Shown here in pieces: positions 853 to 46,764 of a stretch of DNA of 64,000 nucleotides; the first letter of the stretch is position 1; every line of letters starts with the position of its first letter. The notes beneath the pieces were generated by a model. The model had not been told where the DNA came from. It ran no database searches and was given only the letters and a program-made list of their open reading frames with translations. The stretch spans positions 398,936 to 462,935 of the forward strand of contig CP011212.1 in assembly GCA_001029715.1 (NCBI GenBank), given 5' to 3'. The position numbers and the translations under genes are program-made. This DNA is from a candidate division TM6 bacterium GW2011_GWF2_28_16 (lineage in GTDB: Bacteria; Patescibacteriota; Microgenomatia; UBA1400; PJMF01).

Positions 853-1992
853 ATGAGTAACACTACCCTTCTAATATTATGTTTGTTTTTGATTTCAATT
901 TTAGCGACTTTTTATTTTTTGCTAAAAAAACTTTTGTCAGAAAAAAATTCAGAGCAATCTAGTGAACAACTGGAAGATATGGTTCACAAAGTTTTTGGCA
1001 TGGCTTCTAATGAAATTGCTATTCAAAGTAAAGGTATCCTGCAAGGTGAGAAAGATTTAATCAAGAATGATCTCTCTAATAAACAAGCTGCGATTGAAAA
1101 GATGATAAAAGATTTACGTCAAGAAATGGGTGACCAACAAAGAGAAATTCGTGCTATTGAAAAAGATCAGATTGATAAAATTAGTGGAGTTAAAACAGCT
1201 GTTGAAGAGCATCGCCAATTAACCAAGGAACTAAAAATTTCTACAGAGCAACTGGCCAAAGTTTTATCCAATAATCAGACTCGTGGAGCCTGGGGTGAAC
1301 GCATTATTGAAGATTTGTTGCAGGCCAATGGCTTGCAAGAAGGCATTCATTATCTACGTCAAGCTAAATTGGGCGCTTCAGAAATGAAGCCAGATATTAC
1401 CCTGCTTTTACCAGACCATCGCAACGTGGCAGTTGACGTTAAATTCCCGTATCAAGAAGTTCAAAAGATGTCGATGACTGAGGATCAGAGTGAAAAACAA
1501 AGTCATGTTTTGCAATTTAAAAGAGATCTTAAAATTAAAGTAGACAAAGTAGCTACCTATATTTCTCCAGAAAACGATACTTTAGATTACGCAATTATGT
1601 TTGTGCCAAATGAAGCTCTGTTTTCCTTTATCAATCAAAAGTTCCCAGACGTTATTGATGAGGCTTTAGCTAAAAAAGTAATTATTTGTTCGCCTTTTAG
1701 TTTCTTAATTGTGGCTCGCACAGTGATGGAAAGTTATCGTAACTTTATGGTGGGTAAAAAAATCAAACAAGTTATCAAACACATTGATGCTTTTGCAGGA
1801 GAATGGTTAAAATTTGACGATGAATTTTCTAAGTTTGGACGTAGTATCGAAACTTTGCAAAAAAACTACGAAACTCTTTCAACCACGAGGAAAAGACAGA
1901 TGGAAAAGAAGATTCAAAAGATTGAACAGTATCGCGGTAGTTCAGTAGAATTATTGGAAGATGGTGAAAAAGTTAAACTTCTAGAAGATTAA
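853..1992 (+). CDS. rmuC: DNA recombination protein RmuC
   Basis: 379 aa with an N-terminal TM and a long coiled-coil, then the RmuC-type core (RGAWGERIIEDLL, ...VDVKFPYQ..., MFVPNEALF). Confidence 0.7.
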   Translation: MSNTTLLILCLFLISILATFYFLLKKLLSEKNSEQSSEQLEDMVHKVFGMASNEIAIQSKGILQGEKDLIKNDLSNKQAAIEKMIKDLRQEMGDQQREIRAIEKDQIDKISGVKTAVEEHRQLTKELKISTEQLAKVLSNNQTRGAWGERIIEDLLQANGLQEGIHYLRQAKLGASEMKPDITLLLPDHRNVAVDVKFPYQEVQKMSMTEDQSEKQSHVLQFKRDLKIKVDKVATYISPENDTLDYAIMFVPNEALFSFINQKFPDVIDEALAKKVIICSPFSFLIVARTVMESYRNFMVGKKIKQVIKHIDAFAGEWLKFDDEFSKFGRSIETLQKNYETLSTTRKRQMEKKIQKIEQYRGSSVELLEDGEKVKLLED

Positions 1993-3128
1993 TCGTTTAA
2001 ATATTTTTCAAAAAAGCTAAGATCTTTTTGGACAGCTTGATTCCAATTGGGTTGTAAATTGTGATTAGCGCCTGGATATTTGTAGAAGTCAATATTTATT
2101 ACTTCCTTTTTTACTTCTTCCGCACTTTGACTGGCATCTGCGTTTTGAGCGCTAGTTGTAGCTCTCAATTCATTTTCTAAATCTACTTTAGCCAAAAATT
2201 CTTCTGTCCAAGAAATTAAGGCTGAGTCATCAGCAGTGCCATGTTGGATTTGAATCGGTCCATTTAATTTGTCTAAATGTTTGGTCAGCGAAAAATCAAA
2301 AACATCGTAATCATCCTCAAAAAGTGAAACATATTTACGAGTCTCTTTACCCTCATCTCCATATTCGTCACTGAAATAAAGAATTGAATATGGGAAAGGC
2401 ACCAGAACTGGTGCCCAAAGAGTAGTAGGCAGATTGCTACCAAGAACTTCTAGAGTAGAGATTGCAATTTGTCCACCATTACTATGTCCCCAAATGCCGA
2501 TTTGACTTGTATCAACGCTAACTTTTTTAATTGTTAGTTCAGTAATTTGACTAAGATCTATTTCTGGAAATGTTTGAATTGTTTTAATGAGATCAACTGC
2601 ATTGACGACTTTAATAAATCTAGCTTCCCAAGTATCAGTTGGCTCGGGATCACTTTCACCAAAGCCAAGAAAATCTGGAGCTAAAGTGAGGTAGTCGTTT
2701 TCTGCAAAGACAGCAGCAACATTTTTAGTACCTTCTCCAGAGTAATATGTTTCTAGAGGAACATAACCTCTAATCATTATTATGGTTGGTTTTTTTGTGT
2801 TCTCATTATCTATTTTCAAATTAAGTGCACCGGAAATTTTTTTACCCTGACTTTGATAAGTAAAAAGTAGGGCATATGTTTGCGTGTCCAAATCTTTAGA
2901 GATAATTTTTTCAATTCTGATTGGTGATGATACTTTAAATTCTTGTTTGCTTAAATTTTCAAAAGAATATTTAAGCAGTGGCAATGGTTTTTCTGTTTTT
3001 ATTTGTTTAACAATACTTTTTGCCAGAGGAGTTGATTCATTTTTTAAATAAAAATAAGCGATTAAAAAAGAAAGACAGCTACTTATTATCAATAGTAAAC
3101 ATATGAAGATTATTTTTTTTGTTTTCAC
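1989..3128 (-). CDS. Membrane-anchored alpha/beta-hydrolase (S9 peptidase / dienelactone hydrolase-like)
   Basis: N-terminal TM helix; nucleophile elbow GHSNGG (GxSxG) with downstream acidic and His residues (HGTADD). 4-nt convergent overlap with rmuC. Confidence 0.6.
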   Translation of the reverse strand: MKTKKIIFICLLLIISSCLSFLIAYFYLKNESTPLAKSIVKQIKTEKPLPLLKYSFENLSKQEFKVSSPIRIEKIISKDLDTQTYALLFTYQSQGKKISGALNLKIDNENTKKPTIIMIRGYVPLETYYSGEGTKNVAAVFAENDYLTLAPDFLGFGESDPEPTDTWEARFIKVVNAVDLIKTIQTFPEIDLSQITELTIKKVSVDTSQIGIWGHSNGGQIAISTLEVLGSNLPTTLWAPVLVPFPYSILYFSDEYGDEGKETRKYVSLFEDDYDVFDFSLTKHLDKLNGPIQIQHGTADDSALISWTEEFLAKVDLENELRATTSAQNADASQSAEEVKKEVINIDFYKYPGANHNLQPNWNQAVQKDLSFFEKYLND

Positions 3129-3312
3129 TCAGCAAATTATAGCAGTCTTGCTAACTTTTCTTCAAAATTGATGCTTGCTAAAATACCAGATCATATTTAA
3201 AATCTTTCAACATGTCGTTAATTACAAATTACTCCCATTTTTTCTTGGTCATTTTGCGCAAGAACGTTGCGGGGTAATCTTGTTGCATTAAAACAGATAA
3301 AAAACAAGAACA

Positions 3313-3342
3313 AGCCCCGCCTTAAGAAGCGGGTTTTTTTGT
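3313..3342 (+). terminator. Intrinsic terminator-like hairpin (cccgc-ttaagaa-gcggg + U7), part of an attenuator-like element
   Basis: Seen directly: gccccgccttaagaagcgggttttttt. The upstream segment gcgggg...(cttgtt..aacaag)...ccccgc can form a mutually exclusive alternative helix. Confidence 0.4.
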
Positions 3343-3476
3343 ATTTTTGATCTTTAACATTAACTAAGGGCTACTTTAGTCTTCAATTATTTGAAAGTTA
3401 AGGTAACCCTTTGTGGCTAGAGCAAATCAGCGCTCTAGTTTCGAAGGGAAAATTTTTCATGGTGGAGGAGAAAACA

Positions 3477-3590
3477 ATGGCAATAGGCAAGGGTAAGCAA
3501 AAAAAGTCTTCCGAACATTTGCCGAGATGCCCCCTTTGTGGGGGAAAACACAGGGCAAAATATTGTCCAAGAAAGCAAAAACCCTCTTAA
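3477..3590 (+). CDS. Small basic zinc-knuckle-like peptide (37 aa), unannotated micro-gene
   Basis: Near-consensus SD GGAGGAG sits 6 nt upstream of the ATG. Product MAIGKGKQKKSSEHLPRCPLCGGKHRAKYCPRKQKPS carries C-x2-C-x3-H-x4-C. A tandem hairpin terminator follows. Below the ORF-track length cutoff. Confidence 0.45.
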   Translation: MAIGKGKQKKSSEHLPRCPLCGGKHRAKYCPRKQKPS

Positions 3591-3595
3591 CCAAA

Positions 3596-3692
3596 GCCTC
3601 CGGTCCAGTAATGGACCGGAGGCAACAACATTTATTTTGACCAGGATCCTTAATTTTTAAATATTTGAAATTTAAGAATCCTCGTTTTTTTT
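3596..3692 (+). terminator. Tandem terminator: perfect 12-bp GNRA-capped hairpin, then a second hairpin with a U8 tract
   Basis: First hairpin: gcctccggtcca-GUAA-tggaccggaggc. Second: aggatccttaa...ttaagaatcct (one mismatch) followed by tttttttt. Confidence 0.6.
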
Positions 3693-3754
3693 CTAGAGCT
3701 AGCGCAAAGCGCGCCAATCTTTGGAAAGAGGAAATCTTTTTGGGAGGGTCGTCG

Positions 3755-3811
3755 ATGAAGAAAGATAAGAAGAAGAAAAAAGGACATCGTAATAAAAAAG
3801 GCAACAAGTAG
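3755..3811 (+). CDS. 18-aa Lys-rich micro-ORF (MKKDKKKKKGHRNKKGNK); speculative
   Basis: SD-like GGGAGGG 6 nt upstream of the ATG. Followed by a perfect GC-rich hairpin ggtggcgcc-atttattt-ggcgccacc (3842-3867) with no U-tract. Confidence 0.2.
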   Translation: MKKDKKKKKGHRNKKGNK

Positions 3812-3934
3812 TCGCCTTTAGGTGTCCAACCCTCAATCTTTGGTGGCGCCATTTATTTGGCGCCACCAAAATCTTTCCCTTCCTATATTATCTAAAACCT
3901 CTTTTTCAAATTTCGGTTATAATAACTCTTACCT

Positions 3935-5356
3935 ATGCAAAGAACTCTCGTTATTGATTCCTTAGAAAAAGTTGGTCAAACTGTTCGCCTCTGTGGTTGG
4001 GTGGATAGCAAGCGTGATCACGGTAAAGTTACTTTCATTGATTTAAGAGATCGTACTGGCAAGATCCAGGCCGTTGGTATTGGTGGCAAATTGAGTGAGT
4101 TAAGCAATGAGTCAGTTGTTGAAATCACTGGACCAATCAATACTCGTGGCGAAAAAATGGTCAACCCAAATTTGCCAACTGGCTCCATAGAGATTTTTGT
4201 TGAAGATTATAAGGTTCTCAATAAGGCAGCTGAGCTACCAATTCTTGTGGAAGGTGATGGTCGTGATGTTAATGAAGAGATGCGTCTTAAGTATCGCTAT
4301 TTAGATTTGCGTCGTGAGAGAATGCAAAAAATTGTGCGCTTGCGCTCTAAATTTTATCAAGCTCTTCGTGAGCAATTAGAGAAAAAAGATTTTACCGAAG
4401 TTGAAACTCCAATGTTGACCAAATCAACTAAGGAAGGAGCTCGTGATTTCATCGTGCCTTCTCGTTTTAATCCTGGTAAATTTTATGCTCTTCCGCAAAG
4501 TCCTCAACAATATAAACAATTATTGATGACGGCTGGTGTTGAGAATTATTATCAATTTGCTCGTTGTATTCGCGATGAAGATTTACGTGCTGATCGCGGT
4601 TTTGAATTTACTCAGCTTGATCTCGAAATGAGTTTTGTGACTCAACAAGAAGTAATGGATAATGTCGAAGAAATTGTCAAAAATGCTGTCAAAAAAGTTG
4701 GCGCCAAACTCAAAGATGAAGTTTTTCCAGTTATTCCTTACAAAGAAGCAATTGAAAAATATGGTGCCGATAAATTTGATTTGCGCAGTGAGGAAGAAAA
4801 AAAAGAAAATGTTTTAGCTTTTGCTTGGGTGGTTAGTTTCCCATTCTTTAAAAAAGTTGATAAAAAAGACATTGCTGAAGTGCGCGATGGTAAGAGTGGT
4901 TGGACTTTCACTCATAATCCTTTTTCGAGTCCAATTCCAGAATCTATGGAAGATCATAAGAATGCTGAAAATATCGAAAATATTATTACCGCTCAGTATG
5001 ACTTGGTCTGTAATGGTTACGAAGCAGGTGGCGGCAGTATTAGAGCTCATGATCCAGAAGTTCTTAAAAAGACCTTTGAAATCATGGGTTATAGTGATCA
5101 GGAGATTGAAGCCAGTGTGGGCCATATGTTGGAAGCTTTTAAATTGGGCACTCCTCCCCATGGTGGAATTGCTTTAGGACTAGATCGCTTAGTAATGCTT
5201 TTGGCAGGAGAGAATTCACTCAAAGAAACCATTGCTTTCCCAATGAGTTCTTCTGGCAAGACCTCTATCATGGACGCACCAAGCGAAGTTTCTGATGAAC
5301 AACTCAAAGAGTTAGGTATTCTAATCGCTCCTAATTTAGCTACAATGAAAAAGTGA
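3935..5356 (+). CDS. aspS: Aspartyl-tRNA synthetase (short, archaeal/non-discriminating-type, 473 aa)
   Basis: Class II aaRS motifs present: QSPQQYKQLLM, FEFTQLDLEMSF, GGGSIRAHDPE, GTPPHGGIALGLDRLVMLL. N-terminal OB-fold anticodon-binding domain. Confidence 0.9.
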   Translation: MQRTLVIDSLEKVGQTVRLCGWVDSKRDHGKVTFIDLRDRTGKIQAVGIGGKLSELSNESVVEITGPINTRGEKMVNPNLPTGSIEIFVEDYKVLNKAAELPILVEGDGRDVNEEMRLKYRYLDLRRERMQKIVRLRSKFYQALREQLEKKDFTEVETPMLTKSTKEGARDFIVPSRFNPGKFYALPQSPQQYKQLLMTAGVENYYQFARCIRDEDLRADRGFEFTQLDLEMSFVTQQEVMDNVEEIVKNAVKKVGAKLKDEVFPVIPYKEAIEKYGADKFDLRSEEEKKENVLAFAWVVSFPFFKKVDKKDIAEVRDGKSGWTFTHNPFSSPIPESMEDHKNAENIENIITAQYDLVCNGYEAGGGSIRAHDPEVLKKTFEIMGYSDQEIEASVGHMLEAFKLGTPPHGGIALGLDRLVMLLAGENSLKETIAFPMSSSGKTSIMDAPSEVSDEQLKELGILIAPNLATMKK

Positions 5357-46560: not shown

Positions 46561-46741
46561 AATATTTTTATAAAATTACCGCTTGCGCTGATTCTCAATT
46601 CTTGCTACTTTAATTATTGCTGTGGAACATAGTGAAAATCTATGACTGTGCCGCAACGGTAATTCCTTTTTAAGGATTAGTCCGATCTTCAGCAAAAGAG
46701 AAATCTTGACGAGCATCGAGGCTGTATATTTTACTGTCGAT

Positions 46742-46764
46742 GCTCCCTAAAGGGGAGCTTTTTT
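46742..46764 (+). terminator. Intrinsic terminator (gctccc-taaa-gggagc + U6) preceded by a competing hairpin
   Basis: Seen directly. An upstream 9-bp hairpin gagcatcga...tcgatgctc (46711-46745) shares nucleotides with the terminator 5' arm. Confidence 0.45.

What the first reader, a model, noticed from the sequence alone, without database searches (positions are those of the whole stretch)
3129..3934. An 800-bp non-coding, hairpin-dense island upstream of aspS in an otherwise spacer-free genome
Almost every other intergenic gap in this window is under 80 nt, yet this gap is ~800 nt and visibly more GC-rich than its surroundings. It holds several structural elements. At 3257-3342 there is a pair of mutually exclusive helices, gcgggg/ccccgc versus cccgc/gcggg+U7, i.e. 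attenuator or riboswitch-like logic. At 3477-3590 there is a micro-gene with a consensus SD followed by two consecutive perfect hairpins and U8. At 3755-3811 there is a Lys-rich micro-ORF followed by a perfect 9-bp GC hairpin. The only long ORF here (131 aa, minus strand) is low-complexity and antisense to these elements, so it is not credible. This looks like one or more small RNA/peptide genes or a cis-regulatory leader for aspS. It matches nothing I can name (see the separate rejection entry for 3400-3934).
Basis: seen in the sequence. Interest (0 to 1): 0.75.

Follow-up and report, generated by a model that had tools for sequence, protein, structure and literature searches.

The report
Micro-gene island with new RNA leader
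The 800-base "empty" spacer in front of aspS in this candidate-phyla-radiation bacterium holds three unannotated genes for tiny proteins. Two of them sit behind copies of a conserved folded RNA leader that matches no catalogued RNA family.

Summary
The gap 3129-3934 is real and is the largest protein-free stretch in the window (median gap 14 nt). It is not non-coding and it is not an aspS leader. It contains three micro-genes.

(A) A conserved promoter drives a leaderless 21-aa ORF (3212-3277). The last codons of this ORF form the 5' arm of a hairpin that competes with a terminator (3316-3340).

(B) An 86-nt structured leader (3366-3451), an SD, and a 37-aa basic protein with one CxxCGxxHxxxxCP zinc knuckle (3477-3590).

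(C) A diverged second copy of the same leader (3640-3733), an SD, and an 18-aa Lys-rich ORF (3755-3811).

aspS has its own conserved -10 box 11 nt before its ATG.

Across 15 aligned leader copies from 10 related genomes, 93.5% of cells pair and 20 of 32 pairs show compensatory changes. All 19 distinct copies precede an SD and a polybasic micro-ORF. All three ORFs show coding-type substitution only in their own frame.

Rfam, Pfam, NCBIfam, PDB and two billion-scale protein libraries gave no member-level match.

The genes and the RNA fold are well supported. The regulation is inferred: a ribosome-sensing attenuator, and a leader acting as a binding site for a trans-acting factor. The element occurs only in one narrow Microgenomates-like clade.

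The parts
3136..3165 (-). Promoter-like site for the divergent hydrolase gene (TTGAAG-18-TATAAT with TG). The -10 box ends 7 nt before the GTG start at 3128.
   Evidence: 10 of 12 consensus matches. Function is inferred.
3175..3203 (+). Promoter of micro-gene A (-35 TTGCTA, 17 nt spacer, -10 TAAAAT). The -10 box ends 8 nt before ATG 3212, which implies a leaderless mRNA.
   Evidence: The -35 CTTGC, the -10 box and the 8-9 nt spacing to the ATG are conserved in 9 relatives.
3212..3277 (+). Micro-ORF A, 21 aa, MSLITNYSHFFLVILRKNVAG. It has no SD. It is proposed to be a leader (possibly arrest-type) peptide or a free-standing small protein.
   Evidence: The ORF and its ATG are kept in all 12 modules examined (11 distinct; L081 is identical to L011). 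For codons 6-21, pN/pS is 0.26 in frame and 1.1-1.3 in the other two frames, and 50 of 88 differences fall at codon position 3. In L083 Leu is replaced by Ile through a two-base change that breaks the TTGCGCAA palindrome.
3269..3320 (+). Long hairpin (GCGGGG..CUUGUU / AACAAG..CCCCGC), about -19 kcal/mol. Its 5' arm is formed by the last two codons of ORF A, and its 3' arm is the 5' arm of the terminator. This makes it an antiterminator candidate.
   Evidence: The overlap of the ORF end with the 5' arm is kept in all 12 modules examined (11 distinct sequences). There is no compensatory covariation in the outer helix.
3316..3340 (+). Intrinsic terminator: CCCGC, an 8-nt loop, GCGGG, then U7 (-8.9 kcal/mol).
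   Evidence: It is nearly invariant in relatives.
3366..3451 (+). Structured leader RNA, copy 1. P1 is a 16-bp imperfect hairpin (3371-3406). A 7-bp closing helix CCCUUUG/CGAAGGG (3407-3413 / 3442-3448) encloses the 9-bp hairpin P2 (3415-3423 / 3432-3440) across a U-U mismatch and tandem G-U pairs.
   Evidence: The covariance model scores it at 89.5 bits with R1 and 81.7 bits with R2. Covariation is shown. The fold z-score is -4.2.
3461..3470 (+). Shine-Dalgarno sequence GGTGGAGGAG of micro-gene B, 6 nt before the ATG.
   Evidence: Read directly from the sequence. An equivalent AGGAGG is present in all relatives.
3477..3590 (+). Micro-ORF B, 37 aa, MAIGKGKQKKSSEHLPRCPLCGGKHRAKYCPRKQKPS. It is a basic protein with a single CCHC zinc knuckle, CxxCGxxHxxxxCP.
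   Evidence: The motif is invariant in the 8 orthologues aligned, while the flanks diverge. Core pN/pS is 0.36 in frame and above 1 out of frame. The best PDB match is the eIF3g knuckle, E about 0.008. AF2 gives pLDDT 88 over the block of residues 21-30.
3596..3623 (+). Perfect 12-bp hairpin after ORF B, followed by a poor U-tract (AACAACAUUUAUUUU). It may be a weak terminator or a 3' stabiliser.
   Evidence: The position is conserved and the arms show compensated changes in L011, L004 and L001.
3640..3733 (+). Structured leader RNA, copy 2. It has the same P1 and P2, but the closing helix is longer and U-rich (it includes the U8 at 3685-3692). The base of P2 carries two mismatches in this genome.
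   Evidence: A model built only from copy-1 sequences finds it at 26.6 bits, E 1.5e-3. R2 scores it at 46.8 bits. Direct repeats D1 and D8 link it to copy 1. The consensus fold of 5 orthologues is.
3742..3748 (+). Shine-Dalgarno sequence GGGAGGG of micro-gene C, 6 nt before the ATG.
3755..3811 (+). Micro-ORF C, 18 aa, MKKDKKKKKGHRNKKGNK.
   Evidence: The peptide is identical in L082 and 89% identical in L011. L002 and L083 carry 15-aa versions. Against L011, all 7 internal differences fall at codon position 3, giving pN/pS 0.03.
3839..3870 (+). Perfect hairpin with 13-nt arms (UUUGGUGGCGCCA / UGGCGCCACCAAA), followed by AAUCUUU. It is the terminator that closes the island.
   Evidence: I5. It is conserved in L011 and L002 with a variable loop.
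3918..3923 (+). The aspS -10 box, TATAAT. It ends 11 nt before ATG 3935 and there is no SD, so aspS is a separate, nearly leaderless transcription unit.
   Evidence: The block TTTC(A/G)GTTATAATA is invariant in 5 genomes. A promoter-like site is found at the same place in L008.

Best explanation
The island is a compact cluster of three micro-protein genes, with their RNA control elements, that gene callers have missed. It is transcribed separately from aspS.

Shown by the data:
- Three short ORFs (21, 37 and 18 aa) are under coding constraint.
- ORF B encodes a free-standing basic CCHC zinc-knuckle peptide. ORF C encodes a poly-lysine peptide.
- B and C are each preceded by a copy of one structured RNA of about 85-95 nt. 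It has a long hairpin P1, followed by a closing helix that encloses hairpin P2. Its base pairs covary and its conserved G-U pairs fix it to the plus strand.
- In relatives the same leader precedes zinc-knuckle, Lys-rich, 'MARKxKPSGEK' or zinc-ribbon micro-ORFs.

Inferred mechanism:
- Transcription starts at the conserved promoter at 3175-3203 and yields a leaderless mRNA for ORF A.
- In naked RNA the stable hairpin 3269-3320 forms first and prevents the weak terminator, so RNA polymerase reads on into the B and C cassettes.
- A ribosome that translates ORF A to its stop codon (3275-3277) covers or unwinds the 5' arm (3269-3274). This frees CCCGC to form the terminator.
- The module would therefore couple expression of the downstream micro-proteins inversely to translation of ORF A, as in ribosome-sensing, leader-peptide attenuators. 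The conserved peptide core (NY-HFFLVILRK) may act as a stalling sequence.
- The shared leader then acts at a second level as a binding site for a trans-acting factor. The most economical candidates are the basic, nucleic-acid-binding micro-proteins themselves, giving autogenous feedback like ribosomal-protein leaders. The leader would set translation or stability of each cassette.

The function of the peptides is unknown. Small RNA- or ribosome-binding proteins are the working guess.
For: Genes:
- All three ORFs have frame-specific pN/pS below 1 and an excess of third-position changes.
- Each has a consensus SD at 6 nt, or a -10 box at 8 nt for ORF A.
- C, C, G, H, C and P are invariant in the 8 zinc-knuckle orthologues aligned, while their flanks diverge.

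Leader:
- A covariance model built from six copy-1 sequences recovers every copy 2 and the distant copies, and nothing else, in 960 kb.
- On 15 copies, 93.5% of cells pair, 20 of 32 pairs change on both sides, 0 of 500 shuffles reach this, and slid controls give 32-56% paired with 4-8 such pairs.
- All 19 copies listed (18 loci copies plus window, duplicates L081 left out) lie 19-43 nt upstream of an SD plus a polybasic micro-ORF.
- L021 has a perfect TTGACA-16-TATAAT promoter 57 nt upstream of the leader, so the whole fold is transcribed there.

Attenuator:
- The helices are mutually exclusive, at -19.2 against -8.9 kcal/mol.
- In all 12 modules examined (11 distinct sequences), the partners of the terminator's 5' arm lie in the last 2-19 nt of ORF A, although the stop codon has moved in four of them.
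- No promoter-like site lies between the U-tract (3340) and the leader (3366).
- L021 lacks ORF A and has a strong promoter in its place.

aspS independence: it has its own invariant -10 box.

Mechanistic precedent for leader-peptide attenuators: PMC5418344.
Against: There are no expression data of any kind, so every regulatory step is inferred.

Against the attenuator:
- The outer helix of the antiterminator shows no compensatory change, and 4 of 12 relatives have an A-C mismatch in it.
- ORF A has no run of a single regulatory codon.
- The ORF A module is inverted in L003, where it sits upstream of an unrelated 58-aa ORF.
- The ORF A module is absent in L021 and is a stub without its ORF in L006. 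It can therefore exist as an independent gene.

Against a simple on/off role for the leader:
- It does not sequester the SD.
- Its distance to the SD varies, and extra hairpins are inserted there in L001 and L007. No expression platform is visible.
- Copy 2 in this window has two mismatches in P2.

Other limits:
- The alignment used for covariation was fitted by Infernal to the model, which favours the structure.
- The sequences come from one narrow clade, 13 contigs in all.
Confidence: 0.6

Rival explanations
1. There are three independent mini-genes and no attenuation. ORF A is a free-standing small protein with its own promoter and an ordinary terminator. The competing hairpin is incidental. 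Cassettes B and C are transcribed from weak promoters that were not recognised. The leader is only a 5' stabiliser or processing element.
For: The ORF A module occurs without cassettes in L003, where it is inverted. Cassettes occur without ORF A in L021. There is no covariation in the antiterminator outer helix. The leader does not touch the SD.
Against: The ORF A stop codon tracks the 5' arm of the competing hairpin in all 12 modules examined, even where the stop codon has moved. L010 and L008 offset an A-C mismatch with a 5-nt insertion that creates a new helix, GGUGCU:AGCACC. No promoter-like site lies between the terminator and the leader in the window or in L008. The conserved sequence, the fixed G-U pairs and the fixed mismatches in P1 and in the P2 internal loop go beyond what a generic stabiliser hairpin would need.
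Confidence: 0.25
2. The leader is a riboswitch aptamer for a small ligand or ion, for example Zn2+ given the zinc-binding products. Regulation would work through the alternative pairing of the pyrimidine strand CCCUU with either the 5' AAGGG or the 3' AAGGG.
For: The fold is compact and conserved, with an invariant internal loop. Column 43 covaries both with the 3' strand (column 79) and with the 5' flank (column 4), which is compatible with two conformers. The same leader sits in front of different products.
Against: There is no terminator and no SD-sequestering platform. The leader-to-SD spacing is variable and tolerates insertions. The alternative helix is well paired at only 2-3 of its 5 positions and is absent in L011, L021 and L082. 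Several products (the Lys-rich and MARK peptides) have no zinc site. There is no Rfam match.
Confidence: 0.08
3. The P1 'hairpin' is really a DNA inverted repeat, acting as an operator that overlaps a promoter. Transcripts would start inside it, and only the P2 part would be RNA.
For: The scan finds a promoter-like site inside copy 2, TTGACC-17-AATATT at 3637-3665. A TTAACT box precedes several copies.
Against: The hexamers are poor or absent in most copies. L021 transcribes the whole motif from a perfect upstream promoter. The outer pairs of P1 take four different Watson-Crick combinations, and three positions are fixed as G-U, which would be C-A on the other strand and mismatches in duplex DNA. 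That pattern is RNA-type, not operator-type.
Confidence: 0.05
4. The whole island is a cis-regulatory leader for aspS, of the T-box or amino-acid attenuator type.
For: The island lies immediately upstream of an aminoacyl-tRNA synthetase gene on the same strand. There are weak sub-threshold Rfam matches to Phe and Trp leaders.
Against: The Rfam scores are 24 and 21 bits, against gathering scores of 55 and 41, and they align mainly to the terminator. There is no T-box hit. aspS has its own conserved -10 box directly before its ATG, preceded by a strong hairpin. The content of the island differs widely among genomes whose AspRS is 84-90% identical. The leader peptides carry no enrichment of Asp or Asn codons.
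Confidence: 0.02

Closest known systems
Ribosome-sensing leader-peptide transcription attenuators (trp/phe/his leaders; antibiotic-responsive leaders such as those of bmrCD, vmlR and erm; review PMC5418344)
   Same: A short ORF sits upstream of an intrinsic terminator. A more stable alternative hairpin shares one arm with the terminator. The position of the ribosome on the short ORF would decide which helix forms. As in arrest-type leaders, it is the peptide sequence that is conserved, not a codon run.
   Different: The ORF is leaderless. It has no tandem regulatory codons. The downstream cargo is micro-ORFs rather than a biosynthetic or resistance operon. The antiterminator has no covariation support. 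The matches to Rfam Phe_leader and Trp_leader are far below their thresholds.
Ribosomal-protein mRNA leaders with autogenous control (for example the S15, L20 and L31 leaders in Rfam)
   Same: A conserved, covarying structured 5' UTR lies directly upstream of genes for very small, very basic proteins that are often zinc-binding and bind nucleic acid.
   Different: The products match no ribosomal-protein family. One leader serves several unrelated micro-ORFs. The element is restricted to one narrow clade. Mimicry of rRNA could not be tested. There is no Rfam match.
CCHC zinc knuckles, most closely the eIF3g knuckle (CRLCGNDHMTMNCP; PDB 6zu9_r and 2mjc_A; Pfam PF12353)
   Same: The motif spacing is exactly the same, C-x2-C-G-x2-H-x4-C-P, and the context is basic. 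The family profile ranks the eIF3g knuckles first.
   Different: The similarity is limited to the 14-residue knuckle, at E about 0.008-0.03, below Pfam's cut-off of 24.4 bits (15.1 bits). The spacing differs from the canonical retroviral CX2CX4HX4C. Here the knuckle is essentially the whole protein, and the host is a bacterium. Convergence cannot be told apart from homology.
Archaeal and bacterial small zinc-finger micro-proteins with C(P)XCG motifs (recalled from general knowledge, not tested here)
   Same: These are proteins of about 30-60 aa built around CPxCG. They are often missed by annotation.
   Different: Those proteins usually carry two CPXCG motifs that form a zinc ribbon. This family has one CPxCG plus HxxxxCP. 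No sequence relative was found in 5.8 billion clustered proteins or 1.84 billion representatives.

Membership tests
Any Rfam 15 family (including Phe_leader RF01859, Trp_leader RF00513, T-box, riboswitches and r-protein leaders) | A covariance-model score at or above the family's gathering threshold | tested here: not met
   The permissive cmscan of 2900-4100 gave at best 24.3 bits against 55 (Phe_leader) and 20.8 against 41 (Trp_leader), both aligned on the terminator. Nothing credible falls over 3366-3451 or 3640-3733. The gathering-threshold scan of the whole window finds only 2 tRNAs and an AdoCbl riboswitch elsewhere.
Classical leader-peptide attenuator | A short translated ORF immediately upstream of an intrinsic terminator | tested here: met
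   ORF A (3212-3277) shows a coding signature. The terminator lies at 3316-3340.
Classical leader-peptide attenuator | Mutually exclusive antiterminator and terminator helices, positioned so that the ribosome chooses between them | tested here: inconclusive
   The geometry is present and is kept in all 12 modules examined. However, the outer helix has no compensatory changes and shows 4 A-C mismatches. The function was not tested.
Classical leader-peptide attenuator | Tandem codons for the regulating amino acid in the leader ORF | tested here: not met
   The peptide MSLITNYSHFFLVILRKNVAG and its orthologues have no conserved codon run, and the Asp/Asn positions are not conserved. This argues for an arrest-type or general translation-sensing mechanism, if any.
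Riboswitch | A conserved ligand-binding aptamer coupled to an overlapping expression platform (a terminator or SD sequestration) | tested here: inconclusive
   The conserved fold is present. No platform is visible, and the spacing to the SD is variable at 19-43 nt with insertions. Ligand binding cannot be tested with these tools.
Ribosomal-protein autogenous leader | The downstream gene encodes a ribosomal protein, and the leader mimics that protein's rRNA site | tested here: not met
   No Pfam, NCBIfam or PDB ribosomal-protein membership was found. uS14 and bL32 appear only as weak CxxC matches at E 0.03-3. rRNA mimicry could not be tested because no rRNA of this clade is held.
zf-CCHC zinc knuckle (canonical CX2CX4HX4C) | Cys-X2-Cys-X4-His-X4-Cys spacing | tested here: not met
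   The spacing is CX2CX3HX4C in all 8 members aligned. A scan for the canonical pattern found none of them.
eIF3g-type CCHC knuckle (CX2CGX2HX4CP) | The motif spacing with conserved Gly and Pro, and zinc coordination | tested here: inconclusive
   The motif matches exactly, and eIF3g chains are the best PDB profile hits at E 0.008-0.013. Pfam PF12353 scores 15.1 bits, below its 24.4 cut-off. AF2 gives pLDDT 88 over the block of residues 21-30, but Foldseek finds no match. Metal binding cannot be tested.
Type I toxin-antitoxin (small hydrophobic toxin plus antisense RNA) | A membrane-spanning hydrophobic peptide and an overlapping antisense RNA gene | tested here: not met
   The hydrophobic run in ORF A is only about 8 residues (FFLVIL). 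No conserved minus-strand promoter or terminator overlaps it, apart from the hydrolase promoter.

The most novel reading that the evidence does not exclude
The island is a self-contained, translation-sensing micro-operon of a kind not described before. A leaderless arrest-type peptide gates read-through into tandem cassettes. In each cassette a new class of structured RNA controls a free-standing bacterial CCHC zinc-knuckle or polybasic micro-protein. These peptides would be lineage-specific ribosome- or RNA-associated factors that genome-reduced CPR bacteria switch on when translation falters.
Probability: 0.2. Interest if true: 0.8.

Novelty: new variant of a known kind. Interest (0 to 1): 0.58.

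Why it matters
CPR/Patescibacteria genomes are tightly packed, and their regulatory RNAs and micro-proteins are almost unexplored.

This locus yields three things.
1. An RNA motif with strong covariation that is absent from Rfam 15.
2. A family of free-standing zinc-knuckle and polybasic micro-proteins that is missing from libraries of billions of predicted proteins. This shows concretely what standard annotation loses.
3. A candidate ribosome-sensing attenuator built on a leaderless mRNA.

If the leader is a binding site for the peptides, or a sensor, it gives a small and tractable system: about 90 nt of RNA and synthetic 18-37-aa peptides. That would allow post-transcriptional control to be studied in organisms that cannot yet be cultured alone.

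The narrow distribution, 13 contigs from one clade and always at this locus, limits how general the finding is.

Tried and rejected
RNA and protein family scans:
- Rfam at permissive and gathering thresholds gave no family.
- Pfam and NCBIfam on the micro-ORFs and the 131-aa antisense ORF gave only sub-threshold zinc-motif matches.

Protein searches:
- A word-indexed search of 5.8 billion proteins with the zinc-knuckle alignment gave 0 hits.
- A full HMMER scan of 1.84 billion representatives with the window protein gave only 3 long multi-repeat proteins, not homologues.
- PDB searches with the single protein and with a 24-aa relative gave nothing meaningful.
- An AF2 model followed by Foldseek against PDB gave no match, which is expected for a 37-aa peptide.

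DNA pattern scans:
- The metagenome pattern scan gave only 3 contigs, all at the same syntenic locus.
- The viral contig scan gave none.

Literature searches for CPR small zinc-finger proteins or CPR structured RNAs found nothing relevant.

Ideas rejected:
- That the downstream gene might be lysS, which would make the Lys-rich ORF a classical Lys attenuator. The gene is AspRS.
- That the minus-strand 131-aa ORF is a gene.
- That the CCCCC/GGGGG hairpin at 3530-3544 is a regulatory element. It encodes CPLCGG and is not kept at the RNA level in relatives.
- That the antiterminator is supported by covariation.

A first MAFFT alignment of the leaders mis-registered P1. I replaced it with hand-trimmed sequences and Infernal alignments.
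Full report
**Source and context.** The window comes from a low-GC (0.34) candidate-phyla-radiation bacterium. The AspRS protein retrieves 80 loci from uncultured Patescibacteria, labelled Microgenomates or 'Pacebacteria', with up to 90% identity. The gene at 3935-5356 is a bacterial-type aspartate-tRNA ligase (NF001750, 598.7 bits against a cut-off of 443). The gene at 1989-3128 on the minus strand is an alpha/beta hydrolase of the S9/DLH kind.

**The observation.** The 806-nt gap between these two genes is real. With ORFs of at least 90 aa taken as genes, the median gap in the window is 14 nt. The only nominally larger gap is filled by a 314-aa gene. The island's GC content is 0.38, only slightly above the window's. 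Terminator-like sites are four times more frequent than in shuffles. The 131-aa antisense ORF has no family hit and is not open in relatives.

**Comparative frame.** The hydrolase-gap-aspS arrangement is kept in about 20 of the loci, with gaps of 260-1730 nt. DNA of the first 330 nt of the island is 76-87% identical in four relatives, although the neighbouring hydrolase is only about 71% identical at the protein level. This pointed to constrained elements in the gap.

**Module A (3175-3340).**
- Alignment of nine relatives shows a conserved promoter (-35 CTTGCA, 17 nt, -10 TAAAAT/TATAAT), then an invariant ATG 8-9 nt after the -10 box, with no SD. This implies a leaderless mRNA.
- The ATG opens a 21-26 codon ORF in all 12 modules examined (11 distinct sequences).
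- Across five close relatives, codons 6-21 give pN/pS 0.26 in frame and 1.1-1.3 in the other two frames. Fifty of 88 pairwise differences fall at third positions.
- In L083 Leu is replaced by Ile through a two-base change that destroys the TTGCGCAA palindrome. The conservation is therefore at the peptide level.
GCGGGG (3269-3274, the last two codons) plus CUUGUU pairs with AACAAG plus CCCCGC (3315-3320), at about -19 kcal/mol. The terminator CCCGC/GCGGG plus U7 has -8.9 kcal/mol.
- In all 12 modules the bases that pair with the terminator's 5' arm lie within the last 2-19 nt of the ORF. This holds even in L010, L008, L007 and L003, where a frameshift moved the stop codon. In L010 and L008 a 5-nt insertion created a new helix.
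- Against this, the outer helix shows only one-sided changes and four A-C mismatches. The module is inverted in L003, absent in L021 and an ORF-less stub in L006.
- I therefore rate a ribosome-sensing attenuator as plausible, at about 0.4-0.5, but not shown. In this model, translation to the stop codon causes termination, and no or stalled translation causes read-through. The mechanistic class is the one reviewed in PMC5418344.

**The structured leader (3366-3451 and 3640-3733).**
- Aligning the region between the terminator and the 37-aa ORF revealed a strongly conserved segment with visible compensatory changes.
- Aligning the region before the Lys-rich ORF showed the same architecture again. 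The repeat finder independently links 3376-3402 with 3650-3676, and 3410-3423 with 3686-3699.
- The fold has three helices. P1 is a 16-bp imperfect A/U-rich hairpin. A 7-bp closing helix (CCCUUUG/CGAAGGG) follows directly. It encloses the 9-bp hairpin P2 across a U-U mismatch flanked by tandem G-U pairs.
- A covariance model built from six trimmed copy-1 sequences was searched against the window plus 80 loci, 960 kb in all. On the plus strand it found only copies in hydrolase-aspS gaps of close relatives. These included all second copies, which were not in the model.
- On 15 copies, 93.5% of cells form pairs and 20 of 32 pairs change on both sides. No shuffle out of 500 reaches any measure. 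Sliding the partner by 1-3 columns drops pairing to 32-56% and double changes to 4-8 pairs.
- Several positions are fixed as G-U, which identifies the plus strand as the RNA.
- A caveat applies. The alignment was fitted by Infernal, and the sequences are related to one another.
- A rebuilt model, run with filters off, finds no further copy in the 64-kb window and none in the more distant loci.
- A degenerate pattern finds only three metagenome contigs, all at the same locus, and no viral contig.
- L021 carries a perfect sigma-70 promoter 57 nt upstream of its leader, so the whole fold is in the RNA there. In the window no promoter-like site separates the module A terminator from leader 1.

**What follows the leader.** Every one of 19 copies is followed, 19-43 nt later, by a consensus SD and an ORF of 15-50 codons encoding a polybasic peptide.
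- Ten encode the motif CxxCGxxHxxxxCP.
- Five encode MKK(D/E)KKKK(K/R)GH...
- Two encode MARK(K/P)KPSGEK...
- Three encode CxxC...CxxC zinc ribbons.

The zinc-knuckle core has pN/pS 0.36 in frame and above 1 out of frame. The Lys-rich ORF differs from its L011 orthologue at seven internal sites, all of them third positions. The SD is not sequestered by the conserved fold, and L001 and L007 tolerate an extra hairpin between the fold and the SD. For this reason I favour a factor-binding operator or stability element over a classical riboswitch. Part of the 5' flank can pair with the pyrimidine strand of the closing helix and covaries at two positions. This possible alternative conformer is unresolved.

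**Identity of the peptides.**
- Pfam and NCBIfam give only sub-threshold zinc-motif matches.
- A profile of eight knuckle peptides ranks eIF3g zinc knuckles first in the PDB (CRLCGNDHMTMNCP, E about 0.008), followed by uS14, Nop10 and bL32 at chance-level scores.
- No relative exists in 5.8 billion clustered proteins or 1.84 billion representatives.
- AF2 models the block of residues 21-30 at pLDDT 88, but Foldseek finds no match.
- The peptides are therefore new and unannotated. They are related to known zinc knuckles only by motif.

**aspS.** A block TTTC(A/G)GTTATAATA, ending 11 nt before the ATG, is invariant in five genomes and is preceded by the closing hairpin of the island. aspS is thus a separate, nearly leaderless unit. 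The hydrolase and ORF A look leaderless too.

**Verdict.** It is wrong about aspS and about the stretch being non-coding. The solid new findings are a covarying RNA leader family and a micro-protein family, both absent from current catalogues and both confined to one narrow CPR clade. Their function and regulation remain inferred.

Noticed in passing
window 46597-46756 (+): An AdoCbl (cobalamin) riboswitch aptamer scores above Rfam's gathering threshold (55.6 bits against 50). It fills one of the few other long gaps in the window.
   Followed up: no
window 3136-3141/3128, 3198-3203/3212 and 3918-3923/3935: Three neighbouring genes (the hydrolase, ORF A and aspS) each have a -10 box 7-11 nt before the start codon and no SD. 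This suggests frequent leaderless mRNAs in this organism. The micro-ORFs B and C, by contrast, have long leaders and consensus SDs.
   Followed up: partly
window 3935-5356: The AspRS is only 473 aa and matches the 590-aa bacterial model in two stretches. It therefore lacks the usual insertion domain.
   Followed up: no
L021 5388-5588; L005 2581-2790; L008 4804-5013: Some relatives carry a further conserved small ORF of 66-69 aa (..TPTRTAVEKF..GxxxWLxCxLKxQxxHDSSR..) in the same gap. It is absent from the window. The gap behaves as a hot-spot for small genes.
   Followed up: no
L003 4500-5900: In this close relative (AspRS 89% identical), the ORF A module is inverted and followed by a 58-aa acidic ORF. 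That ORF's SD region (AGTTTGAAAGGGAAAA) resembles the 3' end of the leader. A 229-aa ORF is inserted in the gap, and no leader copy is present.
   Followed up: partly
L006 4964-5026: A promoter-like site is followed within about 13 nt by the conserved terminator, with no ORF A between them. This looks like a deletion remnant of module A.
   Followed up: no
window 3407-3416 and 3532-3541: The 10-mer CCCTTTGTGG occurs both in leader copy 1 (closing helix to the start of P2) and inside ORF B, where it encodes Pro-Leu-Cys-Gly. The second occurrence is not conserved in relatives, so this is probably chance.
   Followed up: partly
window 3715-3724 and 3834-3843: An exact 10-nt repeat, CAATCTTTGG, sits at the 3' side of leader copy 2 and again just before the final hairpin. 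Its meaning is unknown.
   Followed up: no
window 3349-3365 and equivalents in relatives: A conserved box, GATCTTTAACA(TTAAC), lies between the module A terminator and leader copy 1. It persists in L021 downstream of that genome's own promoter, so it is probably part of the RNA and not a promoter. Its role is unknown.
   Followed up: partly
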